Notes: generated by a model not told the origin, from the letters alone. Shown: positions 1,796 through 59,651, counted from the first letter of the stretch. The stretch: DNA of 64,000 nucleotides from Candidatus Eiseniibacteriota bacterium (GCA_963717505.1 OY970342.1:3936001-4000000); one strand, 5' to 3'. Translations and numbers: made by a program.

Positions 1796-1840
1796 TCGGC
1801 CATCGCTTCGGAGTCCGCGACTGCGATACATTGGGCGGTC

Positions 1841-16696: not shown

Positions 16697-18851
<2,155 letters not shown>

Positions 18852-18943
18852 GGCCCCAAGGGTAAACCGCGGCGCACGAGTCCCGAAAGCGAGTCCTCGC
18901 GCAGGCGGCATCGCGTGAGCCCTGCGGCGAAGCCCGCCTTCGA

Positions 18944-32512: not shown

Positions 32513-35209
<2,697 letters not shown>

Positions 35210-35435
35210 GAGTTCCTCCGGAATCGTCCGTCCACCGGGAAGGATGGAGTGCGGCTAGCTAGCGGCTCGGTCCCGGTTCCACGAGGGTGGGAAGGCGGGC
35301 GAAGCTAGCACGCCCGCCAAGGCCTCTCAAACGCTGCGTGAGGCCGAACGTTGGTCTTCCAGCCTTCGAGTGTCACTTCAACTGCGGGCGGCAACGGATT
35401 GGCCGAGGACACGGCCGCGCTGGTAGATTGCCTCG

Positions 35436-39746: not shown

Positions 39747-40706
39747 TCAGTGGAGCGCCGAGGGCGCGGCCGCGACCACGCGCCGGCGGCCGCCCTTCTT
39801 CGCGAGCCCGACCGCGCGTTCCGCGGCGCTCAACAGGTCGAGCGGCTCGGTGCCGTCGCCAGGGCTCGCGGCCACCCCCGCGCAGGCGCTGATCCGGCCC
39901 GCACGAGGGAACCGATGCTTCTCGATGGCGCGCTGCACGCGGTCGGCACAGCGCACCGCCGATTCGCGGTCGGTCTCGGGCAACACGATCGCGAAGTCGT
40001 CGCCCCCGAGTCGCGCGACGATGTCGGTCTCGCGCAGCGCGAGCTTCAGCACCAGCGCGACTTCGGCGAGCACAGTGTCTCCCGCCTTGCGCCCATACCG
40101 TTCGTTGATCGCGGCGAAGTGATCGAGGTCGATCACCAGAACGGACACCGGCAGGCCGTGGCGGCGCGCGCGCGCCAGCTCCTCCTGGAGTCGCGCATGG
40201 AACGCCCCGGCGTCGGGCAGCCCGGTGAGCGAATCGCGTCCGGGCATGGTGCGCAGCCGCAAGAGCTCGAGCCGGGCGCCGAGGGCGGCGCCGAGGGCTC
40301 CCGCGGCGGTGCGAATCAGGGTCAGCTGCGAAGGCTGCCAGGCACGGCCCGGACGCGCGATCAGGTCGAGCGTTCCAACGCGCTCCGTCCCCCGCATCAG
40401 CGGCACGCTCAAGCAGCCGCGCAGATCCCCGGCGGCCGTGCGCCAGGCGCCGCGCGCGCACCAGGGTTCGATCGCACCCGAGGGCCCGATCGCGTGCAGG
40501 GCGACGCCGTCGCAGTCGAATGCGCGAATCAGCGACATCAGCGCCCGCTGCAGCGATCGCGGCTCGGCCGCGGGCGAGAGCATCGCCTCGCACGCCGACC
40601 ACAGGAACTGGGACGCGCGCCGGCGGTCGACCGCGGTATCGGGCGTTCCGGCGTCGCTCCTGCGCGTCGCGAGCCCGTCGCCGCCGGTGGGCGGTGCTGC
40701 GGCCAA
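39747..40706 (-). CDS. GAF-like plus GGDEF domain protein (GGDDF, RxxD I-site); start uncertain
   Basis: DSLTGL, DLDHF..IN..YG..AGD, RETDIVARLGGDDF. Confidence 0.85.
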   Translation of the reverse strand: MAAAPPTGGDGLATRRSDAGTPDTAVDRRRASQFLWSACEAMLSPAAEPRSLQRALMSLIRAFDCDGVALHAIGPSGAIEPWCARGAWRTAAGDLRGCLSVPLMRGTERVGTLDLIARPGRAWQPSQLTLIRTAAGALGAALGARLELLRLRTMPGRDSLTGLPDAGAFHARLQEELARARRHGLPVSVLVIDLDHFAAINERYGRKAGDTVLAEVALVLKLALRETDIVARLGGDDFAIVLPETDRESAVRCADRVQRAIEKHRFPRAGRISACAGVAASPGDGTEPLDLLSAAERAVGLAKKGGRRRVVAAAPSALH

Positions 40707-40716
40707 CGACGCCCGG

Positions 40717-41001
40717 CTACGCCGCGCGCGACTCGGAACCGTCGGCGTGGAGCCGCGCTTCGACGACGCGAAGACGCGCCATTGCGTTTTCGATCCGTTG
40801 CGTCTCACCCAGCACCACCTCCAAGCGTGTGCGAAACGCAGGGTCGCTCGCCGCCGAATCGGCCAACAGCAAGCGGATCTGCCCCCGCAAGCCTGCCAAT
40901 GCGTTCAAGACTTCGCTGTGGATGCTGATCGCCGAGGTCGCCGCCCAGGCGGAATCGCCGGCATCGGCGCCGGGGACTCCGACCCGCGACTTCCGCTCCA
41001 C
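40717..41001 (-). CDS. Small protein resembling a stand-alone HisKA (DHp) helix pair
   Basis: IHSEVLNALAGLRGQIRLLL...ETQRIENAMARL; overlaps the fliA tail. Confidence 0.45.
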   Translation of the reverse strand: MERKSRVGVPGADAGDSAWAATSAISIHSEVLNALAGLRGQIRLLLADSAASDPAFRTRLEVVLGETQRIENAMARLRVVEARLHADGSESRAA

Positions 41002-41819
41002 GCGCCGTTGCTGTTCAACGCCTTCTGCAGCCGCAGTCGCAGCCGCGCCATCGCCCGGCTGTGCACCTGCGACACGCGCGACTCCGAGATCCCGAGTGCC
41101 CGTCCGATCTCGTTCAGCGTCATGTGCTCGTAGTAGTAGAGCGCGACCACCAGCCGCTCCTGCTCGGGCAGCTGGTCGAGGGTGCGCAACATGACCCGGC
41201 GACCCTGCTCTTCCTCGAGCCGCGCCTCGACGTCGACCGCGTGCGGATCGGCGAGATGGTCGCCGAGGGTCGACGGCTCCTGGTCGTCGCCGGGGCGGCT
41301 CTCGTCGAGCGACACCAGCACCGCGCCGCGGACGTGGTCGAGCAGCCGGTAGAAGTCGGTGCGCGTCATCTTCAGTTCTCGGGCGACTTCCACCTCGGAG
41401 GCTGCGCGTCCCAGCTTCTGATCGAGCTTGCGGGTTACGCCGTCGAGGTTGCGCGCCTTGCGACGCATGGAGCGCGACACCCAGTCGAGCGCGCGCAGCT
41501 GGTCGAGCACGGCGCCCTTGATCCGCCACACCGCGTAGGTCTCGAACTTGACGCCCTTGCCGGTGTCGAACTTCGCGTGGGCGTCGAGCAGTCCGAGCAC
41601 GCCGGCCGAGTAGAGATCCTCGTGATCCACGTTCTTGGGCAGCGTCGCCGCGACGCGCTCGACCACGTGCCGGACCAGCGGCGCGAACCGGCTCAGCAGC
41701 TCGTCCTTGGAATAGGTCACGGGCACCGACGCCGGCGCGCTGCGATTGGCCGGCTTGCGCACGACTCGAATGGGGGCACGGGACCGGGTGGTGGAGCTGA
41801 CGGGGACGGGGCGTGGCAT
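40905..41819 (-). CDS. fliA: FliA/WhiG-family sigma-28 factor
   Basis: DLYSAGVLGL, KFETYA.WRIKGAVLDQLRALDWVSRS, LYYYEHMTLNEIG..LGISESRVSQVHS. Confidence 0.93.
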   Translation of the reverse strand: MPRPVPVSSTTRSRAPIRVVRKPANRSAPASVPVTYSKDELLSRFAPLVRHVVERVAATLPKNVDHEDLYSAGVLGLLDAHAKFDTGKGVKFETYAVWRIKGAVLDQLRALDWVSRSMRRKARNLDGVTRKLDQKLGRAASEVEVARELKMTRTDFYRLLDHVRGAVLVSLDESRPGDDQEPSTLGDHLADPHAVDVEARLEEEQGRRVMLRTLDQLPEQERLVVALYYYEHMTLNEIGRALGISESRVSQVHSRAMARLRLRLQKALNSNGAWSGSRGSESPAPMPAIPPGRRPRRSASTAKS

Positions 41820-41831
41820 CGTGCCTCCCTG

Positions 41832-42744
41832 CTAGGCCAGGAGCCGGCGGGATTCCACCGGTTCCTGAATCGAGGGCTCAGGCTCGGGTGTCCCCCACAG
41901 CAACGCCGCCATCGCCGGTAGGCGATCGCGGCCGGAGACCGGGGAAACGCCGTGAGCACGGGCTCCTGGCGGCGCACGGCCCGCGGGACGCACGGGTCGT
42001 ACGGCACGGAGCCCAGGAACGGAACGTCGAGCTGCAGGAAGCGGCGCGCGACGAGTCGGATGCGGTGCGCGGTCTCGTCGGCCTCGTCCGGCGCCGAGGC
42101 CATGCTGACCACCAGGTGCGGCGACCGCTTGAGTCCCTGCTGGTGGAGCAGCTTGATCAACGCGTAGGCGTCCGAGAACGCGGGCATCTCGGGGGTGGTC
42201 ACGACCACCACGTCGTCGGCCGCCAGGCACAACGAGACCACCGTCCGACGACGCCGGACGCGAGGTCGAGGAGCACGAGGTCGGCGTCGCCGGCCAGCGC
42301 GCCCAGGGCCCGCAGCACCACCTCGCGCCGGAAGTCGTCGAGCTCGGCCAGCTCGGGAGCACCCGAAGCCGCGGGCACCAGCGTCACGCCGCGCCCGGCC
42401 GGCAGCACGATCTCCTCGATGCTGCGCTCGCCGTTCAGCACGTGCTGCAGGTCGTAGCGCGGGTGGACGCCGAGCAGCAGGTCCAGGTTGGCTTGCGCGA
42501 AATCGGCGTCGACCAGCAGGACGCGCGCTCCCTGCTGACCGAGCGCCACCGCGAGATTGGCGGCCAGGTGGCTCTTGCCGACGCCGCCCTTGCCGCTCGC
42601 GAACGCGATGGTCGGCACACGTGGGCGCCGCCAGCTGGCCGGATGCAGGGCCGGTTCGCTCTCGGTGGCGCCCTCGGCGCCGAGCACGACCCGCAGGGCG
42701 TCGGATCCGGCGTTCGCAGTGTTGCGGCCGCGGTGGCGCTTCAT
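41832..42744 (-). CDS. flhG: FlhG/FleN (MinD-like) ATPase (frameshifts)
   Basis: ASGKGGVGKS, DADFAQANLDLLLG, PAASG, VTTPE.PAFSDAYALIK, GSVPYD. Confidence 0.88.
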
Positions 42745-42983
42745 CGGCCCCACCGGGTGTCGCCCTCGTGCTCGGCCATCGTGTGCAGAGCGCCGACGAA
42801 CTCCCAGTACCGACGCTGCTCGCGGCACGACGCGAGCGGCCACTCGAGGCCGATCCGCGCGAGGCGCCGCTCTTCGTGTCGCAGGGTCTCGACCGCCGCC
42901 TGGATCGCGTAGCCGCGCTCGCCGGCGGTGGCGGGAATGACGCGCGACAGCTCGGCGCACGGGGTCAGCGCAGGACGCGTCAC
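42741..42983 (-). CDS. Hypothetical 80-aa protein
   Basis: Start and stop overlap both neighbours (4-nt coupling). Confidence 0.6.
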   Translation of the reverse strand: MTRPALTPCAELSRVIPATAGERGYAIQAAVETLRHEERRLARIGLEWPLASCREQRRYWEFVGALHTMAEHEGDTRWGR

Positions 42984-43261
42984 GACGCCTTCCGCAAACG
43001 CAGCGAGACGCGCGGCGCAACCTGAGCGCGCGGGCGCGCGGCCAACTTCAGCCTGGCGATCAAGGCCTGGTAGGAGCGCTCGAAGCGACGGACCGACATC
43101 CCCATCGCCACCGCCGCCTCGGCCTGGGTCAGGCGCTCGATCAGCACCAACGCCAGCATCGTGCGCTCGTCGGCGGTGTAGTGCTCCAGAGTCTCGGCTA
43201 CCGGACTCGGGCCGGTCGCGGCGCGGCCGCCCTGGATCACACGCAGTCGCGGGCGCTTCAC
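42980..43261 (-). CDS. Small sigma region-4-like HTH protein
   Basis: GTG overlaps upstream stop; ERTMLALVLIERLTQAEAAVAMGMS resembles sigma region 4; LRVIQGG motif. Confidence 0.62.
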   Translation of the reverse strand: MKRPRLRVIQGGRAATGPSPVAETLEHYTADERTMLALVLIERLTQAEAAVAMGMSVRRFERSYQALIARLKLAARPRAQVAPRVSLRLRKAS

Positions 43262-43659
43262 GCCGCTCTCCGGGGACGAGAACGCATCTCGTCGGCGCGG
43301 TTCTGGCCGATTGCCCGGTACGCGGACTGGCGCAGCTGCTCGATTCGGAACGGTTTGGTGAAGCACTCGACGATCCCGACCCGCGCCAGCTCGGCCGGCG
43401 TTCCGGGAGTCGGATCGGCGGTGAGCAGAATCACCGGCTGCCGCCGGTCGCCGCGCTGCAGCTTGCGCGCCAGCTCGACGCCGCTCATTCCGGGCAGCCT
43501 GAGGTCGGCGATCACCAGATCGCTGTCGTGGTCCTCGAGCCAGGACCATGCATCCTCGGCGCTGCGGAAGACGTCGATGGTGAACCCGTCGTCGTTGAGC
43601 CCTTCGGAGAGGGCCCATGAAACGGTCGGTTCATCGTCGACGATCAGAATGTGCGGCAT
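43258..43659 (-). CDS. Single-domain response regulator
   Basis: ILIVDDE, IADLRLPG, ILLTA, TKPF. Confidence 0.9.
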   Translation of the reverse strand: MPHILIVDDEPTVSWALSEGLNDDGFTIDVFRSAEDAWSWLEDHDSDLVIADLRLPGMSGVELARKLQRGDRRQPVILLTADPTPGTPAELARVGIVECFTKPFRIEQLRQSAYRAIGQNRADEMRSRPRRAA

Positions 43660-43698: not shown

Positions 43699-43714
43699 TG
43701 CAGTCTGCGTGCCA
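43699..43714 (-). promoter_or_regulatory. sigma54 (-24/-12) promoter TGGCACGCAGACTGCA
   Basis: TGGCAC-N5-CTGCA with GG-N10-GC spacing, 40 nt upstream of the receiver-flhG-fliA operon. Confidence 0.8.
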
Positions 43715-43985
43715 GACCGTGCGCACGTGCGAAGTCGTGGCCGTATGACCCACGGTCGCCGCCCACGAGTGGCCGCGTAGGTGGCTGGCGGGCCGGGTCA
43801 TAGCTTTGGACGGGCGGAAGTTACGGTCGGCGGTGAGACCTGGTTCGAGGCCCGTGCGATGGGTCCCGCGAGGGGTCTCGGCAATGCACAATCGATCCGG
43901 TCGGGTGCAATCCGCCCGCCCAACCTCGTTGCGTCCGGGTCCGGCGACGAATGATTACTGGTCGCCCGGGATGCGAACTGCGCGG

Positions 43986-45421
43986 CTAGGTTTCGTCGTC
44001 GCCGGACTCGTCCGCCCCCTCGTCCAGCGCGAACTCCTTGAGCTTGGTGCGCAGGGTCTGTCGGGAGATGCCGAGCAGCCCGGCGGCCCGGGTCTTGTTG
44101 CCGCCACAGACCTCGAGCGCGTGCTCGATCGCCATGCTGCTCGATCTCGGCCAGCGGCCGGACCGACCCTCGGGGAATACCTCGCCGCGCGACGCGGATG
44201 GGCCGGGACGCTTCCGGCCGGTGATCTCGGCCGGCAGGTGCTCGAGGCGGATCTCGTCGTCGGCCCTGCCAGCTCGAGCAGCACGACGCGCTCGATCACG
44301 TTCTTGAGCTCGCGCACGTTGCCGGGCCACGCGTATTCAGACAGGGCGGCGAGGGCACCGGGGGCGAGGCGCGCCGGCGGCCGTCCGAGCTCGCCGCAGA
44401 AGCGCGCGATGAAGTGCTCGGACCAGCTCGGCCACGTCTCCGGCTCGCTCGCGCAGCGGCGGCATCTCGATCGGCACCACGTTGAGCCGGAAGTAGAGGT
44501 CCTCGCGGAACCGGCCCTCGTCGACCAGCTTCCGGAGGTCGCGATGGGTGGCCGCCACCACCCGCACGTCGACGCGTGATGTCGACGCTGCCGCCGACGC
44601 GGCGGAACGTCCGCGATTCTCGAGCACGCGCAGCAGCTTGGCCTGGAGCTGCGGCGCCATCTCCCCGATCTCGTCGAGGAACAGCGTGCCGCGGTCGGCC
44701 AGCTCGAACAGCCCCTTGCGGAAGCGCTTGGCGTCGGTGAACGCGCCCTTCTCGTGGCCGTAGAGCTCGCTCTCGAGCAGCTGCTCGGGGATCGCGCTGC
44801 AGTTGAGGTCGATGAACGGTCCGGCCGCGCGCGCACTGCGATCGTGGAGGTAGCGCGCCATGAGCTCCTTGCCGACGCCGGTCTCGCCCTGGATCAGCAC
44901 GGTCGCGGTTTCGCTGCGCGCCGCGCGCTCGAGCCGCTGGAGCACGTCGCTTGAGCGCGGCGCTCTCGCCGATCAGCGTGCCGCCGCCACCGGCGCGCCA
45001 GTGCTCGACCTCGCGCTGGAGCCGCGCGTGCTCGAGGGCGGTGGTGACCACCGCCCCGAGCTGGTCGAGGTCGGGCGGCTTGAGCATGAAGTCGTAGGCG
45101 CCGAGCCGGGTCGCCTCGCACCGCGTGCTCGACGGTGCCGTGCCCGGTGAGCATGATCACCGGCAGCGTCGGGTCCTCCTCGCGCAGCGCGCGCAGGACC
45201 TGCATGCCGTCCTCGTCCCCGAGCTTCAGGTCGAGCAGCACCACGTCGACCGATCGCTCGCGCACCTGCGCCAGCGCCTCGCGCCGCCCGGTCGCCTCGA
45301 GCGGGGTGAACCCGAGGTCGCGCGCCCACTCGCCGATGCTGAATCGCAGCGAGCGCTCGTCGTCAACGACGAGGAGTGTGTGCGCGGCCTCGGTCGCTGC
45401 GGGAATCGCGTCTTTCGCCAT
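43986..45421 (-). CDS. NtrC-family sigma54 enhancer-binding response regulator (frameshifts)
   Basis: Receiver; [41 protein letters not shown]; Fis-type HTH. Confidence 0.92.
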
Positions 45422-46580
45422 GACGTTTCTCCACGGGGAAGTTGAGCAGCACGGTGGTGCCGCGACCTTCGCGGCTCGCGATCTCGATCGTGCCGCCGTG
45501 CTCCTGCATGATGGTCTGAGAGATCGCAAGCCCGAGGCCGGTGCCGCGTGCGGGCTTGGTCGAGAAGAACGGGTCGAACAGCTTGGATCGGCAGCGCCGC
45601 GCGGAATCCCGACTCCGGTGTCGATCACGCGCATCTGCTGGTATTCGATCCATCCGGGATCCCCGGCGCGCGCGCCTCGCACGGCGTCCGAAGCCCGCCG
45701 GCCCGGCCCGCGGTTCGGGCGGCGTCGCCGCGCGCGGCGCACCTCGTAGCGCAGGGTTCCCCCCTCGGGCATCGCCTGGATCGCATTGAGCGGTCACGTT
45801 GAGCAGCACCTGGGTCACGAGATCGCGATCGACGTGCACGGCCGGAAGCGCGCGGGGCGCGTCGACCTCGACCGCGATCCCGGCGTCGGCGACGGTCTCG
45901 GCGGTCAGCTCGCGCACCCGCTCGAGGCAGCTGGCCGAGCTCATGCGGGTGCCAGCTCGGGCGTGCGCGGGCGCGCGTACTGGAGCAGGCTGGTCACGAT
46001 GTCGGTCGAGCCGCGCCACCTCGTCGAGGATCACCCGGACGAAGCGCGCGCGTTCGTCGCGCGGCTCGAAGCGTCGCAGCAGCACCTGGGCGCTGGTGCC
46101 GATGCCGGCGAGCGGATTGCGGATCTCGTGCGCGACCCCGGCCGACAGCTGTCCGAGGGTCGCCAGGCGCTCGTGCCGGCGCAGCTCCTGCTGCATGCGG
46201 CGCTGCTGGGTCAGGTCGCGGAGCAGAAGCAACACCCAGGGCGGCCGGCCGATCCTTCGGCTCCGGATCAGGACCGGCGTCCCCGCGCCATCGGGGCGGA
46301 GCAGAACGGTCTCACGCTCGGTGCGCGCGGCGGCCCGCGCCTCCCGCACCGGATCGTCGCCGGGCACGACGGTGCGCACGAAGCTCGACCCGGGCTCGCC
46401 GAGCGCTTGGCGCGGGCGCAGCCCCAGCAGGTGCTGGGCCGCGTCGTTGACGGATCGGACGCGGCCGCGGGGATCGAGGACCAGGACCCCCGCCTCCGAG
46501 GTGCGCATGAGGATGCGGAGCGCCGACTCGAAGGGGAAGCCGGTTCGGGATCGACTCGCCGCAACGCTCGCAGGCGCCAT
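45363..46580 (-). CDS. Cytoplasmic PAS histidine kinase (frameshifts)
   Basis: PAS; AHEIRNPL; FDPFFSTK; GTGLGL; no TM. Confidence 0.9.
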   Translation of the reverse strand: MAPASVAASRSRTGFPFESALRILMRTSEAGVLVLDPRGRVRSVNDAAQHLLGLRPRQALGEPGSSFVRTVVPGDDPVREARAAARTERETVLLRPDGAGTPVLIRSRRIGRPPWVLLLLRDLTQQRRMQQELRRHERLATLGQLSAGVAHEIRNPLAGIGTSAQVLLRRFEPRDERARFVRVILDEVARLDRHRDQPAPVRAPAHARAGTRMSSASCLERVRELTAETVADAGIAVEVDAPRALPAVHVDRDLVTQVLLNVTAQCDPGDARGGNPALRGAPRAATPPEPRAGPAGFGRRARRARRGSRMDRIPADARDRHRSRDSARRCRSKLFDPFFSTKPARGTGLGLAISQTIMQEHGGTIEIASREGRGTTVLLNFPVEKRHGERRDSRSDRGRAHTPRR

Positions 46581-46679: not shown

Positions 46680-46895
46680 TCAGTTGTGCTTGAGTTCTTC
46701 GATCACCGCCGCGACCAGCAAATCGCGAACCTCTTCCCGATCGTAGTGCCTTTCGGCGATACGGGTTTGGGCGACAGCCACCTTGGACCACCGAATCGCG
46801 GCCTCGACCGCTTCAGGTCGACTCGCCACTCTTCGGACGCGGGTCTTCACTCGGCGGTCCCTGCTGGCGACGGTTTTCTTCTTGGATCCGCGCAT
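46680..46895 (-). CDS. FlgM-like anti-sigma-28 factor (start may be GTG at 46850 or 46829)
   Basis: [35 protein letters not shown] fits the FlgM C-terminal R..KV....RI...Y pattern; downstream of a sigma28 promoter. Confidence 0.6.
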
Positions 46896-47037
46896 AGATC
46901 TCTTCGCGATGGACCTTGACCTCAGGCGGCGCTTCGATGCCAAGCTTTACCTGGCCCGAACGGACTTCGAGGACGGTGATCTTCACAGAATCACCAATCC
47001 TGATGTTCTCGCCTAACTTCCGTGTTAGGACCAGCAT
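46813..47037 (-). CDS. csrA: Carbon storage regulator CsrA
   Basis: MLVLTRK.GE.I.IG...[21 protein letters not shown]. Confidence 0.96.
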
Positions 47038-47088
47038 CGTCGCCCATCCTCCGCTCGGCACCCGGACATTGAATCCGGGACACGAGTC

Positions 47089-47115
47089 GTATCGGCCCTG
47101 GTTTCAAACGGCTTA
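47089..47115 (-). promoter_or_regulatory. sigma28 promoter TAAG-N15-GCCGATAC upstream of csrA
   Basis: Matches TAAA-N15-GCCGATAA consensus with exact spacing. Confidence 0.8.
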
Positions 47116-47154
47116 AGTGGACAATACCCGGAACTTAGACGGCCTTCAAAGACC

Positions 47155-47182
47155 TTGACTCCAGGGGGTCGTCGGCTAGCCT
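47155..47182 (+). promoter_or_regulatory. sigma70-type promoter TTGACT-N16-TAGCCT
   Basis: Consensus match upstream of the PP2C gene. Confidence 0.5.
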
Positions 47183-47213
47183 GCGCCGGGGGACCAACCC
47201 GGACCGGGGGGCC

Positions 47214-49682
47214 ATGTACCGCACCACCTCACTGCTTTCCTGGCTGTTGCTGCCCCTGGCCGCTTTTCTGGTCGCGAGCGCCCTGGGGCTGTCCCAGCAC
47301 CCCTATGTCGGGGCCGTACTGCGCGGGCCGGCCGTGGTCGCCGTCGACCCGGGCAGCCCGGCCGACCGTGCGGGGATCCGGGCGGGCGACCGCGTCCGGG
47401 CGTCGGCTTCGCCCCAGGCGGGAACGGCGGCCCGCCCCCTGGCGGACGCCACGATCGGACGACCGCTGACGCTCGAGATCGATCGTCAGGGCGAGTCGCG
47501 GACGGCGTGGCTGGTGCCCGATCGGCTGCCGGACGGCGATCGACGTCTGATCGGCGCGTTGCTGCTGGTGGCGTCGGGGTTCGTCTTGCTCGGCGGCTGG
47601 GTGTGGAGTGAACGTCGCGACCCTCTGACGCGCGCCTTCTTCCTCCTGTGTCTGGGGTTCGCGTTCCTGCTGGCGCCCCTGCCCCACGCGACCGGGCGCG
47701 CCGCGCACCTCATTCACGAAGCGGTGCTGACCGGCGTCACCGTCTTCCTGCCCGCCTGGTTCGTTCATTTCTTCGCACTGTTCCCCGACCGCAGTGCCCG
47801 CGGTGGGCGACGCGCGCTGGTCCAGGGCAGCTACCTGATCGCCACGGCACTGCTCGTGATCTCGCTCGCCCCGCTGGTCCTGACCTCGACCGGCCACGGC
47901 GCGATCGTGAACCCGATCGATCCCCTGCTCCAGGCGGTGGCCGCGTTGTGGTTCGCCGCCGGAGTCGTGATCGCCATCGCCCTGTTCGCCGCCGCCCTGC
48001 TCCAGGCTGAATCGAACGACGCGCGGCGCCGTCTGCGCGTCGCCTTTGCTGGAACGGTGCTCGGAGCGGCTCCGCTCGCGGCGTTGATCGTCGTCCGCAA
48101 CGTGGCGCCGGAAGTGTCGATTCCGGGGGAGCGTTTCGCCTTGTTGCTCGTGCTGTTCGTGCCGGCGTCGTTCGCGTGGGCGACCGTGATCCACCAGGTG
48201 TTCGACACGCGCGGAGCGCTGCGGATCGGCCTGGTCGCTGCGTTCCTCGGGCTGGTCGGCGCCGCGCTCTACGCGGCCGGTGAGTGGCTGGCGCTCGCCT
48301 GGTGGCCCAATCTGGGGAGCGGCATCGCCGGCGGGGCACTGGCGATGCTGGCGCTCGGAGCGTGCATCGCGGGACCGCTCGCGCCGCGACTCAGGATGTT
48401 CGGAAGCCGCGTCGTCCCCGAGCCCGGAACGCCATCGCTCACGACCTGGCTTGCGCGCGAGCCCGGCCTGCGCGACCTGCCCATGGAGCGGATCCTGCGC
48501 GAAGCCTGCGAGGTGGTCGCACGCTCCCTGCGTCTCGATGGCTGCGCGGTCGTGGTCTACGACGGCTTGCTCCCCTTCGGAACCACCGGGCACGGCACGC
48601 TGTCGGGAAACGGCTGGCCGGTCCCCGATCGATCGGCGTTTCGGGGGCAGGGCGTGCTGGCGCTCGAGGATGCTTCGCTTCCGACCGGCGATCGCGACCG
48701 CTTGGACCTGGCCGGAGTGCAATGGCTCGTGCCGATCGGTGAGAACCCGACTCGGGGCGTCATGGTGATCGGGCGGCGGCTCGCGGGATCGTGGCTCGGG
48801 CGAAGTGAGCAAGCCGAGCTCGAGAGTTTCTCGGCGCATCTCGCGATCGCGCTCGAGAACGAAGCGCTGCGGCGCGAGGCTTCGGCGCGCGGCCACCTGG
48901 ACCGCGAGCTGGCCGAGGCCGGCGCCATCCAGGCGCATCTGCTCCCTCGGCACGCGCCGGTGTTCCCGACGCTCGATTGCGCCGCCGCGGCACTCGCCAG
49001 CGAAACGGTGGGCGGCGACTACTACGATTTCATCCCGGGTCCCGGACGCGACTTCACGCTCGCGGTCGGCGACGCCGCGGGGAAAGGCGTGCCGGCAGCA
49101 CTGGTGTTGGCCGGAGTCCAGGCCCGGTTTCGCAGCCAGGCGGGGCGCGGACTCACGCCCGGGCGGCTGCTCGCCGAGCTCAATCAGGAACTGGTGGGTT
49201 TGGACCAGCCCGAGAAGTTCGTTGGACTGTTGTGCGCGCGTGTCGAAGTCCGCAGCGCGCGCATTTGTTTTGCCAACGCCGGGCTGACCCCGCCGCTGAT
49301 CCGCCGGCGAACGGGAGTGTTCGAGGAGTTCACCGCCGGCGGCATGCTGCTCGGCGTGCGCGCGCCCTCGACCTATCCCGAAACCTGGGTCGAGCTGGAT
49401 GCCGGCGACCTGGTGGTCATCTACTCCGACGGTCTGACCGAGGCCCGGCGCGGCGAGGAGATGTTCGGGGTCGAGGGGATCCAGCGAGTGCTCGAGGAGC
49501 ATCGGGAGCGCCGGGCAGCCGACATCCTCGAGGCCCTGCTCTCCGAGGTCCGGGCCTGGACCGATCAGCCCCTGGACGACGTGACCGTCGTGGTTCTGCG
49601 TCAGCTGACCCGGGCAGGCCGCCCCGGGGGTCCGCAAAACGCACTCAAGCGGACTCCGGTCACCGCCGATGCAATGGGGTGA
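47214..49682 (+). CDS. Membrane PDZ/TM/GAF/SpoIIE (PP2C, RsbU-like) phosphatase
   Basis: PDZ (PGSPADRAGI..GD); about 8 TM; VGGDYYDF, VGDAAGKG, YSDGLTE, DDVT. Confidence 0.9.
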   Translation: MYRTTSLLSWLLLPLAAFLVASALGLSQHPYVGAVLRGPAVVAVDPGSPADRAGIRAGDRVRASASPQAGTAARPLADATIGRPLTLEIDRQGESRTAWLVPDRLPDGDRRLIGALLLVASGFVLLGGWVWSERRDPLTRAFFLLCLGFAFLLAPLPHATGRAAHLIHEAVLTGVTVFLPAWFVHFFALFPDRSARGGRRALVQGSYLIATALLVISLAPLVLTSTGHGAIVNPIDPLLQAVAALWFAAGVVIAIALFAAALLQAESNDARRRLRVAFAGTVLGAAPLAALIVVRNVAPEVSIPGERFALLLVLFVPASFAWATVIHQVFDTRGALRIGLVAAFLGLVGAALYAAGEWLALAWWPNLGSGIAGGALAMLALGACIAGPLAPRLRMFGSRVVPEPGTPSLTTWLAREPGLRDLPMERILREACEVVARSLRLDGCAVVVYDGLLPFGTTGHGTLSGNGWPVPDRSAFRGQGVLALEDASLPTGDRDRLDLAGVQWLVPIGENPTRGVMVIGRRLAGSWLGRSEQAELESFSAHLAIALENEALRREASARGHLDRELAEAGAIQAHLLPRHAPVFPTLDCAAAALASETVGGDYYDFIPGPGRDFTLAVGDAAGKGVPAALVLAGVQARFRSQAGRGLTPGRLLAELNQELVGLDQPEKFVGLLCARVEVRSARICFANAGLTPPLIRRRTGVFEEFTAGGMLLGVRAPSTYPETWVELDAGDLVVIYSDGLTEARRGEEMFGVEGIQRVLEEHRERRAADILEALLSEVRAWTDQPLDDVTVVVLRQLTRAGRPGGPQNALKRTPVTADAMG
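49645..49672 (+). promoter_or_regulatory. sigma28 promoter TCAAG-N15-GCCGATGC
   Basis: Exact spacing; lies at the 3' end of the PP2C gene, facing the intergenic region. Confidence 0.7.
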
Positions 49683-49785
49683 GGCGACAGAGCGCCGCCT
49701 CCCCCGCCCGCGCTGCCAACCCACGGGCGGCCGCAGCTTACGGTTGACCGCGCTGTGCGCGACCTCGATGTCAGGAGGTCCGACC

Positions 49786-49842
49786 GTGGAGTTCGCTCTT
49801 ACGGTGCTCTTCCTCGACCTGCTGTGGTGGATTCGCCGCTAG
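49786..49842 (+). CDS. 18-aa hydrophobic peptide MEFALTVLFLDLLWWIRR
   Basis: AGGAGG 7 nt before GTG; hydrophobic core with RR end; downstream hairpins. Confidence 0.6.
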   Translation: MEFALTVLFLDLLWWIRR

Positions 49843-49997
49843 TCAGCGGACTCCCCCGGCACCTCGCGTAGGTGGGCCGTTCCGGGGGGGCACGACGCTC
49901 CGGAGCGCCGTGTCTCTCTGGGATGGCTCGCGAGGGCGATAGCCTCTGAACACTGGGTCCGCGGCCCGGTCGAGCTCACCGGGTGCGCGGAGCGGTG

Positions 49998-50792
49998 CTA
50001 TGCGCCAAGTGCCGCCTCGAGAGAACGCGCCAACGCCACCACCCGGCCGCCGGCATCCTGCTCCGGGTTCTCGGCGATCGCGCGCATGAACGCGGCGCCG
50101 ACCACCACCGCGTCGGCCTTGCCGCGCAGCGCTGCAGCCTGATCGGGCGTCGAGATCCCGAATCCCACGGCGATCGGCAGCGAGGTTCCGGCGCGGACTT
50201 CGGCGATTCTCTGGGTGAGGTCCAAGGTCTCCCCGGCCGAGCGACCGGTGACCCCGGTGCGCGCCAGGCAATAGACGAACCCACGGCAGCGCTCGAGGAT
50301 TCCCGGCAGTCGCGCCGCGGGCGTCGTCGGTGCGACCAGCAGGACCGGATCGAGCCCGGCGTCGGTCAGGGCCTGCCAGGTTTCGGGCGACTCGTCGGGC
50401 GGCAGGTCCGAAACCAGGACGCCGTCGATTCCGGCTGCCGCCGCGTCCGAGGCAAACGTGCGGATGCCGAGTGCCAGGATCGGATTGGCGTAGGTCATGA
50501 CCACGACCGGAGTCTCGAAGCCGTCGACGCGGAACGAGCGCACGAGTTCGATCGCATCGGCGGCCCCGACGCCCTGGCGTACCGCCCACTCCGAGGAGCG
50601 CTGGATCTCGGCGCCGTCCGCGATCGGATCCGAGAACGGAATTCCGATCTCGAGCGCGAGCGCTCCGGTTTCGGCGAGGCGGCGCATGAGCGACGCGGTC
50701 GCCGGCAGCGAAGGATATCCGGCCGTCAGGTAGGGGATCAGTCCGGTGCGGCCGCGCGCCGCGGCGAAGGCGCGGGCTATGCGACCCGGCAC
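49998..50792 (-). CDS. trpA: Tryptophan synthase alpha subunit
   Basis: YLTAGYP, EIGIPFSDPIADG, MTYAN, GVTG, VGFGIST. Confidence 0.95.
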   Translation of the reverse strand: MPGRIARAFAAARGRTGLIPYLTAGYPSLPATASLMRRLAETGALALEIGIPFSDPIADGAEIQRSSEWAVRQGVGAADAIELVRSFRVDGFETPVVVMTYANPILALGIRTFASDAAAAGIDGVLVSDLPPDESPETWQALTDAGLDPVLLVAPTTPAARLPGILERCRGFVYCLARTGVTGRSAGETLDLTQRIAEVRAGTSLPIAVGFGISTPDQAAALRGKADAVVVGAAFMRAIAENPEQDAGGRVVALARSLEAALGA

Positions 50793-50802
50793 GGACTCGC
50801 GA

Positions 50803-51276
50803 TCAGCGGGCGAAGTAGGGGTCGCGGATGTAGCCGAGGCCGCCGTTGTTGTACTGCAACGGCGAGCGCACGTCCTGGTATTGAACCTGGAGCACCATGT
50901 TCCGGTTCGGCCGCCACGCGAAATCGAGACCTTCGAGGAAGAAGGCGCTGTTCATTCGGCCACCGCTGCCGCCGAACTGGCTTCCGACGCTCACACTCAT
51001 CCAGATGGGCGCACGGAACTGATAGCCGAAGCGAGTGACCTGGAGCCCGTCCGAGGTGCCGCCGAATCCGGTGCCGACACTGACCGTGGTCGACATACTC
51101 AACCGAGACGGGTCGATGCCGAACTTGGGCTGAGCGAAACCGCTGATCGGAACCTGCGGGGTATAGCCGGGGCTCGAGAACGGTCCTGAGCCCGGCGTGT
51201 CGGCGCTCGCCGACCAAGCGGAGAATCCCGCGAGCAACGCCGCGAAGACCACGCCGAACACGATTCGCTGTCTCAT
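50803..51276 (-). CDS. Hypothetical secreted beta-rich protein
   Basis: Signal peptide MRQRIVFGVVFAALLAG..ASA. Confidence 0.7.
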   Translation of the reverse strand: MRQRIVFGVVFAALLAGFSAWSASADTPGSGPFSSPGYTPQVPISGFAQPKFGIDPSRLSMSTTVSVGTGFGGTSDGLQVTRFGYQFRAPIWMSVSVGSQFGGSGGRMNSAFFLEGLDFAWRPNRNMVLQVQYQDVRSPLQYNNGGLGYIRDPYFAR

Positions 51277-51285
51277 GGCTTTGAA

Positions 51286-51314
51286 ACGGTACGCCCGAGC
51301 CTTTGGAGTGTCAA
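51286..51314 (-). promoter_or_regulatory. sigma70 promoter TTGACA-N17-TACCGT (near-leaderless)
   Basis: Perfect -35; -10 lies 9 nt before ATG. Confidence 0.7.
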
Positions 51315-51369
51315 CCACCACGTCACACAAGCCTGACAGTCGTCGCGGAGAACGACTCCGCAGGCACCA

Positions 51370-52486
51370 TCACTCTTCGGAGATGACGATGCGCACGATG
51401 ATCTCGCGCGTCGTGCCCCGAGGAATCGTGATGGGAATGACGGCCTCGGTCGCCCCGCCGCCTCCGGAGACCTCGACGGTCGCCTGCCTCAGGCCGGGGC
51501 GTTCGGCGGTCAGCTCGGGCGCGGGTGCGGCGCGACGCGCCTCGGGCTGGGGCTGGGGTTGGGGCTTCGGGCGCGCCATCGCGATCTCGGCGGCAACCGG
51601 CGCCGGCCGTTTCGCGGCGGGGGCCACGTTGCGAGTCTCGGGTTTCTGGAGCTGAACCGGCTCCGACTCGAGCTCGGCGACCGCCTCGCCCAGCCCCGGC
51701 AGGGCGACTTCGTTGCCGAAGTCGGCCGGCAGCGCCGGCGGACGGGGTCGTGCGGGGTTCGCCTGAGGTGTCTCGAGCATCGGACGCTTTGCGGCGGGTT
51801 CGGCCGCACGAGCGGCGGGAGCTGCGGGCGCCGCCGGCTCTTCGGCGGCCGCCTCGGCCTTGGGACGCGACGCCGGGCTGAACGCGGTGCGCTTGAGGTC
51901 GCGGGTCACCTTCTCCATCAGCAGGTGCGACACGCCGCGGAAGGTCTCGAACACGCCCTTGCCTTGACGTCGCCACCGCCTCGAAGAACGGCACCGTCGC
52001 CGGTCGGGTTCAGCTCGGCGTTCAGCTCTTCGACGGTGTAGACGTTGGGCAGATCGCGCTTGTTGTACTGGATCACCCAGGGAATCTCGTCGAGCTGCAG
52101 CCCGTACTCGGCGAGGTTGGTGCGCAGGTTCGGCGAGACTCTCCTTGTTCTCGTCCATCTTGCCGACTTCGCTGTCGGCCACGAACACGATCGCATCCGC
52201 GCCCTTGAGCACCAGCTTGCGCGTGGCGTTGTAGAACACCTGGCCCGGGCACGGTGTAGAGCAGGAAGCGGGTCTTGAAGCCCATGATCTCGCCGAGGTC
52301 GAGCGGCAGCAGGTCGAAGAACAGCGTCCGGTCGGACTGCGTCTTCATGCTGACCATCTTGCCGCGGCTGGTGTCGGGCACCGCCTCGTAGATGGCCTCG
52401 AGGTTGGTGGTCTTACCGCTCAGGCCGGCCCCGTAATAGACCAGCTTGGCGTTGATTTCTTTGCCCGAGTAGCTCACGACGACCAC
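51370..52486 (-). CDS. mglA: MglA-family small GTPase with Ala/Pro-rich C-terminal extension (frameshifts)
   Basis: [57 protein letters not shown]. Confidence 0.9.
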
Positions 52487-52725
52487 GGTCCATTCCTCCT
52501 TGAGCGACCCCACCCTGTCGCAGAGGTGGATCCCATGGAGCCCCTTGCCGCCCTTTCTCCAATGGGCCTCGCGGGTGCTTGAACGACCTACTGCGATGCC
52601 TAAGCAAGGAGCCGCCGTCCTCGCACCGGATGGGGTCGCGATTCCCGGTCCGCGGCGATGACGCCGCGACTAGACCGGAATCGCGCCACTCCGTTGACTG
52701 TGAGATCCCGCGGACTTCGAACCCG

Positions 52726-52753
52726 GTATCGGCCGGCGATCCGAGGGGCTTGA
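52726..52753 (-). promoter_or_regulatory. sigma28 promoter TCAAG-N15-GCCGATAC upstream of mglA
   Basis: Exact spacing; directly downstream of a terminator. Confidence 0.8.
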
Positions 52754-52758
52754 ACCCG

Positions 52759-52785
52759 AAAAACGCCGCCGCTGCGGCGGTTCGC
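52759..52785 (-). terminator. Intrinsic terminator after the hypothetical gene
   Basis: CCGCC/GGCGG stem plus TTTTT on the minus strand. Confidence 0.55.
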
Positions 52786-52798
52786 CTCGCGTCGGACT

Positions 52799-53220
52799 TC
52801 ATGCGACCTCGACCAGGGACTCGACGCGATGGATCCAGATGCCCGGCCGCTCGCGCACCTGCGCCCGAATCGCCTCGCCCCGGTCGCGATAGTGCGAGAG
52901 GAAGATCTCCTTCAGCCGCTCGCAGTCGCTCGGTCGGAAAGTAGCGACAGGCCCGGGTGAACATCTCGTCGCGACCGGAGTAGACGAACGCGGTGACCTC
53001 GGTGACCCGGTCGTACTGGGTCTCGCCGTAGGCGGCCTCCGGGGAGTCCTCCATGTCGAGCCACAGCGAGGCGCGCGGTATCGAGCACTTCGAAGCCGTG
53101 CTTGCGGGTCATCAGGTACTCCCACAGACCGAAGATCTCGAGCGGCACGAAGCGTGGCGTCGTCTCGCGCTCGGCCAGGCCCGGGCGAATGACGCAGCGC
53201 ACCAGCTTCTGGCTGGGCAT
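52799..53220 (-). CDS. Hypothetical protein of about 140 aa (frameshifts)
   Basis: GGAGG SD; MPSQKLVRCVIRPG...WEYLM...SLWLDMED...RYFP...PGIWIHRV stitched across frames. Confidence 0.65.
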
Positions 53221-53328
53221 ATTGGAACCCTCCAGGCGGGAGTGTCGGCACCGGTGCGCCCCGATGGGCGCGGCCAAGTCGAGCGAGCGACTCGCCAGCA
53301 AAGGGCCGGTTCAGCGACTCCCCCACCG

Positions 53329-53356
53329 GTGTCGGCAACCGCGGGCGGCGTCTCGA
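53329..53356 (-). promoter_or_regulatory. sigma28-like promoter TCGAG-N15-GCCGACAC
   Basis: Exact spacing; one mismatch per box versus the mglA site. Confidence 0.55.
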
Positions 53357-53366
53357 TGGAAATTCA

Positions 53367-53382
53367 TGCAGTTTGCACGCCG
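53367..53382 (-). promoter_or_regulatory. Putative sigma54 promoter CGGCGTGCAAACTGCA
   Basis: GG-N10-GC spacing; same CTGCA -12 as the 43699 site. Confidence 0.5.
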
Positions 53383-53414
53383 GTCTAGGGTCACGGAGCG
53401 GGCAACCCCAGTCC

Positions 53415-53444
53415 TTGACAGGGTTTCGGGGCGCCGGATAGCTT
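53415..53444 (+). promoter_or_regulatory. sigma70 promoter TTGACA-N18-TAGCTT
   Basis: Consensus match upstream of the acyltransferase operon. Confidence 0.65.
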
Positions 53445-53488
53445 CGGGCGCGCAAACCCGCCGCCCGGGGACCCAGGGAGACTGTCCT

Positions 53489-54401
53489 TTGCTGTCACGG
53501 CTCGTTTACAACCTGGTCACGACCCTGATCGCGGCCCTACCGGCCCGGCTCGGCTATTTCATCGCCGTCGGCGCTGACCGAGCTTGCACATGGCCGCTGC
53601 TTCCCCTCCCGCCGCCACGCCGCGCTGGCGAATCTGGCGAGTGATGCTGCCCGGCGCTCGCGCCGCGAGCGCCTCCGGATCGTCCGCGCGCATGATGCGC
53701 AGCTACAACCGCATGCTGTTCGAGTTCTTCCGCCTGCCCCACCTCGGACGCGCGAGGAGCTGCTGCGATGCGGTCGAGGTCGTCGGGCCGCGAGCACCTC
53801 GAGCAGCGCGGTCGCCCGCGGCCGCGGCGTGATCATCGCCTGCACGCCACATCGGCAACTGGGAGCTGGCGGCGGTGGTGCTCGCGCACTGGGGCTACAC
53901 GCTGCACGCGGTCGCCGGCGTCCAGCTCAGCCGCTGGCTGACCGCCGGCGGTGCGCGAGACCAAGAGCCGAGCTGGCGATCCACACCGTGTCGCCCGAGG
54001 ACGGCTTCCGCAAGCTGCTGCGCGCGCTCGAGCACAACGACCTGGTCGCGCTGATGGTGGACGGCGACCTCTACCAGCCACGGCGCCACCGTCGAGTTCT
54101 TCGGCCGCGAGACGCGCTGGCCCGCCGGGCCCGGCGTGCTCGCGCAGCGCACCGGCGCGCTGGTCATCTGCGGCTACTGCGAGCGCACTCGCGCCCGGGC
54201 GCTTCCGCATCGTCATCGAGCCGGCGCTCGATCCGGCCGCGTTCCCGATCGGCGCCGGCGCTCAACGCCGCGATCGCCGGGACCGCCGAGCGCCACATCC
54301 GCGAGCATCTCGACCAGTGGTGCATCTTCCGGCCGATGTGGGAACCCGCGCCGGAGGCGGAGCGCGCACCGGATCCCGCGGCGCGTCGCGTTCGCGCGTG
54401 A
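53489..54401 (+). CDS. Lysophospholipid acyltransferase (LpxL/PatA-like; frameshifts)
   Basis: HIGNWE, VALMVDGD, VEFFG, HLDQWCIFRPMW across frames. Confidence 0.82.
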
Positions 54402-59080: not shown

Positions 59081-59108
59081 GCCAGTACGCAATGCCCGCA
59101 GTTCGGAG

Positions 59109-59615: not shown

Positions 59616-59651
59616 CGGCGTGTCGATTCCTTCGGGATCGCGAGCGACGCT

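What the first reader, a model, noticed from the sequence alone, without database searches (positions are those of the whole stretch)
47089..53356. Four sigma28 promoters within 6.3 kb define a non-flagellar regulon
Seen: TTAAG-N15-GCCGATAC (csrA-flgM), TCAAG-N15-GCCGATGC (peptide), TCAAG-N15-GCCGATAC (mglA) and TCGAG-N15-GCCGACAC (unknown gene). All have exact 15-nt spacing and face a gene. Known: the sigma28 consensus is TAAA/TCAAG-N15-GCCGATAA. I found these by eye in gene-proximal regions, not by an exhaustive scan.
Basis: partly seen in the sequence, partly recalled or inferred. Interest (0 to 1): 0.8.

Follow-up and report, generated by a model that had tools for sequence, protein, structure and literature searches.

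The report
Conserved sigma-28 promoters in an Eisenbacteria genome
Three of the four proposed promoters are conserved sites of the type read by the flagellar sigma factor, whose gene lies nearby, and they face a regulator operon, a cell-polarity gene and a tiny peptide gene, but it is not shown that the organism lacks flagella.

Summary
All four strings are in the window exactly as described. Sites 1-3 are kept, with the same 15-nt spacing, at the same places in related Candidatus Eisenbacteria genomes (3 of 3, 5 of 5 and 3 of 3 orthologous loci). Site 4 is kept in 0 of 3.

A FliA/WhiG sigma-28 gene lies about 5 kb from site 1. It sits behind a FleN/FlhG-like ATPase and a conserved sigma-54-type promoter.

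- **Site 1** drives csrA, then a small protein that a model docks onto sigma-28 region 4. The docking score is 0.71 against 0.00 for the best control. A histidine kinase and a sigma-54 activator follow.
- **Site 2** starts a conserved structured leader and an 18-codon ORF.
- **Site 3** drives an MglA GTPase gene behind a 232-nt conserved leader.

So there is a real sigma-28 promoter set with unusual targets. 'Non-flagellar regulon' is not shown. The module looks like a flagellar regulatory cascade, and flgM is a classic sigma-28 target. The rest of the genome could not be searched for flagellar genes. Site 4 is probably chance.

The parts
47089..47116 (-). Site 1: sigma-28-type promoter in front of csrA (TTAAG-N15-GCCGATAC). 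The predicted start is near 47081, giving a 44-nt leader.
   Evidence: Conserved in 3 of 3 syntenic loci (alignment A1). Best hit of the ortholog-trained matrix in the window.
46813..47037 (-). csrA
   Evidence: Pfam CsrA, E 4e-26. NCBIfam CsrA, 96.8 bits against a cut-off of 73.
46683..46946 (-). Small ORF overlapping the end of csrA (stop-to-stop limits; the start is uncertain). Its C-terminal ~40 residues are conserved. Putative anti-sigma-28 factor that works like FlgM.
   Evidence: 45 homologues of 44-108 aa, none named. Docking onto sigma-28 region 4 scored 0.71 against 0.00 for the best control. Pfam FlgM is not met.
45366..46580 (-). PAS histidine kinase
   Evidence: Pfam PAS, HisKA and HATPase_c. 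The intact ortholog is in L001.
43989..45793 (-). NtrC-type sigma-54 activator (receiver, AAA+ and Fis-type HTH domains). It is in pieces in the window.
   Evidence: Pfam hits on three window pieces. The L001 ortholog is an intact 592-aa ORF with all domains.
43700..43714 (-). Sigma-54-type promoter element TGGCACGCAGACTGC, 40 nt before the start of the receiver gene.
   Evidence: TGGCACGCA...TGCA is invariant in 4 of 4 sequences of alignment A9, where mean column identity is 61%.
43261..43659 (-). Single-domain response regulator
   Evidence: Pfam Response_reg, E 6e-25.
41832..43047 (-). FleN/FlhG-like MinD-family ATPase, split between two frames in the window.
   Evidence: The intact L002 ortholog is closest to FleN (5J1J, 3e-55) and FlhG (4RZ2, 4e-40), ahead of MinD (1e-30).
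40905..41819 (-). FliA/WhiG-family sigma-28 factor
   Evidence: TIGR02479, 242.8 bits against a cut-off of 189.6. 83-86% identical to the orthologs in L001-L003.
39750..40904 (-). GAF-GGDEF diguanylate cyclase directly after fliA
47214..49682 (+). Membrane PDZ-GAF-PP2C (SpoIIE-type) phosphatase, divergent from csrA. Its last 38 nt hold site 2.
   Evidence: Full-length orthologs are found only in 5 Candidatus Eisenbacteria loci. A conserved TTGACT-N16-TAGCCT lies upstream; I read it by eye from alignment A1.
49645..49672 (+). Site 2: sigma-28-type promoter (TCAAG-N15-GCCGATGC). The predicted start is near 49680.
   Evidence: Conserved in 5 of 5 orthologous loci, including two without the csrA-fliA neighbourhood (alignment A2).
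49679..49785 (+). Conserved structured leader: two hairpins, plus a helix that covers the ribosome-binding site and start codon of the small ORF.
   Evidence: No Rfam match. A covariance model finds it only at this place in 6 of 81 sources.
49786..49842 (+). 18-codon ORF encoding a hydrophobic peptide that ends in DLLWWIRR.
   Evidence: The last 8 residues are invariant in 6 of 6 sequences, although 5 of those 8 codons vary synonymously.
52726..52753 (-). Site 3: sigma-28-type promoter in front of mglA (TCAAG-N15-GCCGATAC). The predicted start is near 52718.
   Evidence: Conserved in 3 of 3 syntenic loci (alignment A3).
52764..52780 (-). Terminator-like hairpin with a T-run between the unknown gene and site 3.
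52487..52718 (-). mglA 5' leader. Two invariant, mutually complementary blocks (GCGACCCCAUCC and GGGUGGGGUCGC) enclose a conserved hairpin.
51370..52486 (-). MglA-type GTPase with a Pro/Ala-rich C-terminal extension of about 190 aa. It is frameshifted in the window.
   Evidence: The intact 382-aa L001 ortholog matches solved MglA at E 6e-72 over residues 3-192.
53329..53356 (-). Site 4: TCGAG-N15-GCCGACAC. Probably a chance match.
   Evidence: Present. Not conserved in 3 of 3 orthologous regions. Scores below 8 bits with the ortholog-trained matrix.
52800..53220 (-). Gene for a conserved ~137-aa protein of unknown function, frameshifted in the window.
   Evidence: 531 homologues, all unnamed or 'hypothetical'. 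No Pfam, PDB or fold match.

Best explanation
Sites 1, 2 and 3 are promoters read by RNA polymerase carrying the FliA/WhiG-type sigma-28 encoded at 40905-41819. Together with that gene they form a compact regulatory circuit that is conserved in Candidatus Eisenbacteria.

Inferred flow:
1. The PAS kinase and the NtrC-type activator switch on a sigma-54 promoter (43700-43714).
2. That promoter drives the receiver gene, fleN/flhG-like and fliA.
3. Sigma-28 then fires three promoters:
   - P(csrA) drives csrA, a small FlgM-like anti-sigma protein, and probably the kinase and activator genes. This would give negative feedback through the anti-sigma factor and positive feedback through the activator.
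   - P(mglA) drives the polarity GTPase MglA behind a 232-nt structured leader.
   - A promoter inside the end of the phosphatase gene makes a short RNA with a structured leader and an 18-codon membrane-peptide ORF.

Shown: the motifs, their conservation, the identities of the genes, and the RNA and ORF conservation.

Inferred: that sigma-28 uses these sites, the extent of each operon, the feedback loops, and any role of CsrA on the leaders.

Site 4 is most likely a chance match. The circuit has the make-up of a flagellar regulatory hierarchy. Whether it also controls flagellar genes elsewhere is open.
For: Motif and conservation:
- All 14 sites at the three places (window plus L001-L004 and L012) read TNAAG-N15-GCCGA[TC] with identical spacing, while the spacers differ (alignments).
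- In L001, L002 and L003 (19-22 kb each) the pattern occurs only at the three orthologous places. In L004 and L012 it occurs only at the site-2 place.
- The ortholog-trained matrix picks sites 1, 3 and 2 as the top three of 64 kb.

Cognate factor:
- The sigma factor matches TIGR02479 above its cut-off.
- The -10 box matches the sigma-28 consensus GCCGATAA, and the -35 box resembles TCTAAAG (PMC12784957, passages).

Transcript features:
- The conserved site-2 leader starts 8 nt after the -10 box, where +1 is expected.
- A terminator-like hairpin separates the unknown gene from site 3.

Circuit:
- The sigma-54 element is invariant in 4 of 4 sequences.
- The ATPase is closest to FleN/FlhG.
- Docking of the small ORF product onto sigma region 4 scored 0.71, with the best of 3 controls at 0.00. 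This mark was reached by 116 of 157 solved complexes and 2 of 215 mismatched pairs. The runs share at least 47% of their contacts, and the partner pLDDT is at least 57. Solved sigma-28/FlgM complexes exist, so this pass may reflect likeness only.
- MglA identity: E 6e-72 to solved MglA.
Against: - There is no transcript or start-site data.
- Conservation rests on only five related genomes of one phylum. Two of them (L004 and L012) are close to each other, so the independent comparisons are few.
- The spacing is 1 nt longer than in the P. aeruginosa fliC promoter.
- In 200 simulations a matrix score of up to 23.9 bits arose by chance, and 3 hits of 15 bits or more were reached at least once.
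- The small ORF is not recognised as FlgM. In Pfam 1 of 34 members matched, at E 0.05. PDB profile searches found no FlgM.
- Site 2 lies in coding sequence, so part of its conservation could be protein constraint.
- One TNAAG-N15-GCCGAY match lies inside a gene in another Eisenbacteria contig (L070). This shows that chance matches do occur.
Confidence: 0.8

Rival explanations
1. One reading: the organism has no flagella, and this sigma-28 runs a purely non-flagellar regulon, as WhiG does in Streptomyces or sigma-28 in Chlamydia. Here it would govern MglA-based polarity or surface motility.
For: - No flagellar structural gene was found by Pfam in the 77 ORFs scanned across the 64-kb window.
- None was found in the ORFs scanned in L001-L003 or in L004 and L012.
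- fleN is preceded by a receiver gene. I recall flhF as its usual neighbour.
- Two of the three supported targets (mglA and the micro-ORF) are not flagellar.
Against: - At most 64 kb of any one genome was seen.
- The module (FleN/FlhG-like ATPase, FliA, an FlgM-like protein, CsrA, a kinase with a sigma-54 activator, and a sigma-54 promoter) is the regulatory kit of flagellated bacteria.
- flgM is a standard late flagellar gene.
- One preprint reports chemotaxis proteins in an Eisenbacteria genome and cites 'nutrient-attracted motility' second-hand (10.1101/2025.11.25.690425, passages).
Confidence: 0.3
2. All four sites, site 4 included, are sigma-28 promoters. Site 4 would be a lineage-specific gain.
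For: - Exact N15 spacing.
- Its -10 variant GCCGAC also occurs in the conserved site-2 copies of L004 and L012.
- The gene needs a promoter of its own in 53221-53490. Its upstream neighbour is divergent, and the tool found no sigma-70-like site in that stretch.
Against: - TCGAG breaks the A that is invariant in all 14 conserved sites.
- It scores below 8 bits.
- No counterpart exists in 3 of 3 orthologous regions.
- In L003 the aligned stretch reads as a sigma-70-like TTGACC-N17-TACGAT (by eye).
Confidence: 0.2
3. The conserved boxes are not promoters of sigma-28. They would be targets of another sigma factor or a DNA-binding regulator, or they are chance matches kept by other constraints.
For: - No expression data exist.
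- Site 2 overlaps coding sequence.
- The spacing differs by 1 nt from the P. aeruginosa fliC promoter.
Against: - GCCGATA is the hallmark -10 box of sigma-28.
- A two-box architecture at a fixed distance, with free spacers, is kept at three unrelated places.
- The only FliA/WhiG-family gene seen lies in the same cluster.
- The simulations argue against chance.
Confidence: 0.07

Closest known systems
Late (class III/IV) flagellar promoters of FliA/SigD, e.g. P. aeruginosa fliC and B. subtilis flgM
   Same: - The -10 box GCCGATA(A/C) and a -35 box of the T(C/A)AAG type.
- A cognate FliA.
- An anti-sigma gene under sigma-28 control.

Sources: PMC12784957, passages; PMC4054197, introduction.
   Different: - The spacer is 15 nt rather than 14 nt between the 5-mer and the 8-mer.
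- No flagellin, motor or chemotaxis gene is seen behind these sites.
- The anti-sigma candidate is not a recognisable FlgM.
- Sigma-D control of B. subtilis csrA is recalled from memory. I did not see it in a paper.
Sigma-54 to sigma-28 flagellar hierarchies with FleN/FlhG (Pseudomonas, Vibrio, Campylobacter); recalled, not read here
   Same: A kinase with an NtrC-type activator, a sigma-54 promoter, and FleN/FlhG next to fliA.
   Different: - No flhF and no structural genes are adjacent.
- The kinase and activator genes lie behind a sigma-28 promoter, which would close a loop.
Bdellovibrio FliA as master regulator of attack-phase genes, including Tad/Flp pilus genes
   Same: A flagellar sigma factor extended to non-flagellar surface-behaviour genes (PMC5430801, passages).
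   Different: - That organism is flagellated and the control was shown by reporter assays.
- In the passages I read, that paper cites MglA only in its reference list and does not call it a FliA target.
WhiG of Actinomycetota
   Same: A sigma-28-family factor with diversified targets and a link to c-di-GMP. Here a GGDEF gene follows fliA (PMC12871210, abstract and passages).
   Different: - WhiG2 is held by RsiG with c-di-GMP, and no RsiG was looked for here.
- The best NCBIfam hit here is the WhiG model, at 250.7 bits and below its cut-off of 343.
Sigma-28-dependent small RNAs of E. coli and Campylobacter
   Same: Short sigma-28-driven transcripts, some arising from gene ends (PMC10578931 and PMC4626219; titles and abstracts in the listing only).
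   Different: - The unit here carries a conserved 18-codon ORF and a leader that masks its start.
- No base-pairing target is known.

Membership tests
Sigma-28 (FliA)-dependent promoter | -10 box resembling GCCGATAA | tested here: met
   GCCGATAC, GCCGATGC and GCCGATAC at sites 1-3, and GCCGACAC at site 4. Consensus from PMC12784957.
Sigma-28 (FliA)-dependent promoter | -35 box of the TAAAG type at a fixed distance | tested here: met
   TNAAG-N15 in all 14 conserved sites. This is 1 nt longer than in P. aeruginosa fliC. Site 4 has TCGAG, so it does not meet the feature.
Sigma-28 (FliA)-dependent promoter | A cognate sigma-28 gene in the genome | tested here: met
   TIGR02479, 242.8 bits against a cut-off of 189.6, at 40905-41819.
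Sigma-28 (FliA)-dependent promoter | Conservation at orthologous positions | tested here: met
   Site 1 in 3 of 3 loci, site 2 in 5 of 5, site 3 in 3 of 3, and site 4 in 0 of 3.
Sigma-28 (FliA)-dependent promoter | Transcription start 7-9 nt after the -10 box, dependent on FliA | not testable with these tools
   Indirect evidence only: the conserved leader of site 2 begins at the expected +1.
Non-flagellar sigma-28 regulon (Streptomyces WhiG or Chlamydia type) | No flagellar structural genes in the genome | not testable with these tools
The literature searches gave no statement either way.
FlgM anti-sigma-28 factor | Match to the FlgM family model | tested here: not met
   Pfam gave no hit for 3 of 3 orthologs. 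1 of 34 family members matched, at E 0.05. PDB profile searches found no FlgM.
FlgM anti-sigma-28 factor | Binds sigma-28, with C-terminal helices on region 4 | tested here: inconclusive
   In-silico docking only: score 0.71 against 0.00 for the best control, with residues 33-67 on sigma residues 182-240. The pass may reflect likeness to solved complexes.
MglA GTPase | Sequence similarity to characterised MglA over the whole G domain | tested here: met
   E 6e-72 to 3T12 and 4e-70 to 5YMX over residues 3-192 of the L001 ortholog. The ~190-aa C-terminal extension is additional. No Roadblock/MglB domain was found among the ORFs scanned.
FleN/FlhG | Closer to FleN/FlhG than to MinD or ParA | tested here: met
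   FleN 3e-55, FlhG 4e-40, best MinD 1e-30. The NCBIfam MinD models score below their cut-offs.
Sigma-54-dependent promoter | GG-N10-GC element, conserved, with an activator gene nearby | tested here: met
   TGGCACGCA...TGCA is invariant in 4 of 4 sequences. The NtrC-type activator is adjacent. rpoN was not looked for. The loose consensus itself is not enriched in the window: 32 matches against 56 expected.

The most novel reading that the evidence does not exclude
In Candidatus Eisenbacteria a complete flagellar-type regulatory cascade has been cut loose from flagella. The cascade consists of a kinase with a sigma-54 activator, then FleN and FliA, then sigma-28, held by a non-canonical anti-sigma protein. 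On this reading it now times MglA-dependent cell polarity or surface motility. It would do so together with CsrA, a structured mglA leader and an 18-residue membrane peptide that travels with a membrane PP2C phosphatase.
Probability: 0.25. Interest if true: 0.7.

Novelty: new member of a known kind. Interest (0 to 1): 0.45.

Why it matters
Sigma-28 promoters are among the few bacterial promoters that can be read from sequence alone. A conserved set therefore gives a first regulatory map for a phylum with no cultured member.

The map links a flagellar-type sigma factor to MglA, the switch that sets cell polarity in gliding and pilus-driven bacteria, and to an unnamed micro-peptide RNA.

If that link holds, two things become testable. 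One is how swimming-type and surface-type motility controls are coupled. The other is how a flagellar control module was reused after flagella were lost.

My searches found no paper reporting mglA under FliA control. One search returned 19 papers holding all three terms. I saw the titles and abstracts of 15 of them, and passages of one.

Tried and rejected
Searches that found nothing:
- Rfam on the whole window at gathering scores, and on 46900-53500 at E up to 1, gave 0 matches.
- A covariance model of the site-2 leader, run over the window and 80 loci, found only its six training copies. A weak hit in L029 (E 0.086) is taken as chance.
- Pfam, NCBIfam, PDB sequence search and the protein atlas gave nothing for the unknown protein behind site 4.
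- The AlphaFold model of that protein had mean pLDDT 62.6, and its fold search gave 0 matches at E up to 0.001. No function is proposed.

Candidate sites rejected:
- The third GCCGATA in the window (20638) has no TNAAG box and lies inside a DUF4139 gene, so it is not counted.
- The TNAAG-N15-GCCGAY match in L070 lies inside a GAF-domain coding region, so it is taken as chance.

Ideas dropped:
- I considered the WW in the 18-residue peptide as a Trp-attenuator leader, because trpA is nearby. trpA is convergent, and tblastn found no trpA in L004 or L012, which still keep the peptide unit.

Literature:
- Searches on Eisenbacteria with flagella, motility or chemotaxis, and on the class name, gave no direct statement about flagella.
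- The supplementary tables of those papers were not opened and may hold gene inventories.

Full report
**Observation**

The window has 69% G+C. Many genes are broken by frame shifts, including valS, uvrB, the NtrC-type gene and mglA. The assembly is therefore noisy, and I took gene models from cleaner relatives.

The four strings are present exactly as described, each with 15 nt between the boxes. Site 1 (47089-47116, minus strand) lies 52 nt before the csrA start. Site 2 (49645-49672, plus strand) lies in the last 38 nt of a membrane PDZ-GAF-PP2C phosphatase gene and faces an 18-codon ORF. Site 3 (52726-52753, minus strand) lies 240 nt before an MglA gene. Site 4 (53329-53356, minus strand) lies 109 nt before a gene of unknown function.

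**Where it comes from, and relatives**

A scan with the phosphatase found full-length orthologs (49-58% identity) only in five Candidatus Eisenbacteria genomes. L001, L002 and L003 share the whole neighbourhood. Its order is GGDEF, fliA, fleN-like, receiver, NtrC-type activator, kinase, csrA, then the phosphatase, then trpA, a small secreted protein, mglA and the unknown gene. L004 and L012 share only the phosphatase and what follows it. The ORFs scanned around it there match ordinary metabolic enzymes, peptidases and a transposase, and none matched a flagellar family.

**Conservation**

Alignments of the non-coding stretches have mean column identities of 65%, 52% and 67%. They show the two boxes invariant and the spacers free:
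- site 1 in 4 of 4 sequences
- site 2 in 6 of 6
- site 3 in 4 of 4

All 14 sites read TNAAG-N15-GCCGA[TC]. In L001-L003 this pattern occurs nowhere else. In the window it occurs three times at N15 and never at spacings 11-14 or 16-20. In 100 first-order Markov simulations the mean was 0.23 and the maximum 2.

A matrix trained on the 11 non-window sites ranks sites 1, 3 and 2 first in the window, at 17.8, 17.3 and 17.1 bits. Against this, chance scores in the simulations reached 23.9 bits. Three hits of 15 bits or more were reached at least once in 200 simulations. One in-gene match exists in another Eisenbacteria contig.

Site 4 has no counterpart in 3 of 3 orthologous regions. It scores below 8 bits. 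It also breaks the invariant A of the -35 box. I treat it as a probable chance match, with about a one-in-five chance that it is a lineage-specific promoter.

**The factor and its module**

A FliA/WhiG-family sigma gene lies at 40905-41819, with TIGR02479 above its cut-off. It is preceded by a MinD-family ATPase that is closest to FleN and FlhG.

Forty nt before the receiver gene that heads this group, the element TGGCACGCA...TGCA is invariant in 4 of 4 sequences. This is a sigma-54-type promoter. An NtrC-type activator and a PAS kinase are encoded just upstream. About 230 nt further up lies another conserved block containing TGCAC repeats, which may be the activator's binding site. I read that by eye and did not test it.

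**The operon behind site 1**

After csrA comes a small ORF whose last ~40 residues are conserved in the four loci and in 45 further proteins of 44-108 aa. None of them is named. No model calls it FlgM: Pfam gave no hit for the three orthologs tried and matched 1 of 34 family members at E 0.05, and two PDB profile searches found no FlgM.

A complex prediction placed its conserved part on region 4 of the sigma factor. The score was 0.71, with the best of three controls at 0.00. This mark was reached by 116 of 157 solved complexes and 2 of 215 mismatched pairs. The runs agree in at least 47% of their contacts, and the partner pLDDT is at least 57. Sigma-28/FlgM complexes have been solved, so the pass may reflect likeness only. 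I call the ORF a putative anti-sigma-28 factor that works like FlgM, not a member of the FlgM family.

**The unit behind site 2**

Eight nt after the -10 box, at the expected start, a highly conserved RNA begins. It has two hairpins and a helix that covers the ribosome-binding site and start codon of the small ORF. Of 33 predicted pairs, 5 show changes on both sides; the three in the two hairpins come from the L004/L012 pair.

The ORF encodes 18 residues ending in DLLWWIRR. Those eight residues are invariant in 6 of 6 sequences, although five of the eight codons vary synonymously. It is therefore translated.

Rfam has no match. My covariance model finds the RNA only at this place. Because the unit stays with the phosphatase in L004 and L012, a functional tie to that membrane phosphatase is my guess and nothing more.

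**The unit behind site 3**

A terminator-like hairpin ends the unknown gene just before the -35 box. The 232-nt leader holds two invariant, mutually complementary blocks that close a domain with a conserved hairpin, just before the ribosome-binding site. The pairs never vary, so they say nothing for or against the fold.

The protein is a clear MglA, at E 6e-72 to solved MglA. It carries a Pro/Ala-rich extension of about 190 aa and a short conserved end. The leader carries several GGA motifs, so control by CsrA is conceivable. That reading is by eye and untested.

**Comparison and verdict**

The boxes fit the sigma-28 consensus. GCCGATAA and TCTAAAG are 14 nt apart in P. aeruginosa fliC, and that paper states that spacer length is not conserved. 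The Eisenbacteria spacing is 1 nt longer.

Sigma-28 factors with non-flagellar targets are known:
- Bdellovibrio
- WhiG in Actinomycetota
- sigma-28-dependent small RNAs (listing only)

flgM is a standard sigma-28/sigma-D target. The finding is therefore a real, conserved sigma-28 promoter set with two unusual targets in an uncultured phylum. It is embedded in a cascade of flagellar type.

The claim that it defines a non-flagellar regulon rests only on not seeing flagellar genes in 64 kb. I could not test it.

Noticed in passing
window, whole length (e.g. 32516-35304 valS pieces; 16956-19002 uvrB pieces; 43989-45793; 51370-52486): Many genes, essential ones included, are split between reading frames, while their orthologs in L001-L003 are intact. 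This points to insertion and deletion errors in the assembly and not to pseudogenes.
   Followed up: partly
window 47140-47185 (+): A sigma-70-like TTGACT-N16-TAGCCT lies in front of the phosphatase gene. Both boxes are conserved in alignment A1. csrA and the phosphatase gene would therefore be divergent units with different promoter types. I read this by eye.
   Followed up: partly
window about 43900-43960 (-); alignment A9: A conserved block (AACGAGGTTGGGCGGGCGGATTGCAC, followed by a TGCAC-type repeat) lies about 230 nt upstream of the sigma-54 element. It may be the activator's binding site. By eye, part of it is nearly complementary to the second hairpin of the site-2 leader RNA. Neither point was tested.
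   Followed up: no
window 51370-51900 (-); L001 14038-14600 (-): MglA carries a long Pro/Ala-rich tail that ends in a short conserved beta-like motif. This extension is absent from the solved MglA proteins, which are 195-203 aa long.
   Followed up: partly
window 52800-53220 (-); L001 15539-15949 (-): This is a highly conserved protein family of about 137 aa. It has 531 homologues, and the best 120 listed are 66-99% identical. It has no name, Pfam domain, PDB relative or confident fold, and it lies next to mglA in all four loci.
   Followed up: yes
window 50806-51277 (-): A small gene between mglA and trpA encodes a Gly-rich protein with a signal-peptide-like start. It has no family match.
   Followed up: no
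window 10664-11077 (-): A HepT-like ribonuclease gene (Pfam E 2e-27), the toxin half of a HepT/MNT pair. The partner was not looked for.
   Followed up: no
window 53416-53445 (+): A TTGACA-N17-TAGCTT lies in front of the gene that diverges from the unknown gene. Its -35 part is shared with L003 in alignment A4.
   Followed up: no
window 56828-59707 (-) and 1796-4231 (+): Two Ser/Thr kinases with TPR repeats. One of them has a weak FlgO-domain match (E 7e-5).
   Followed up: no
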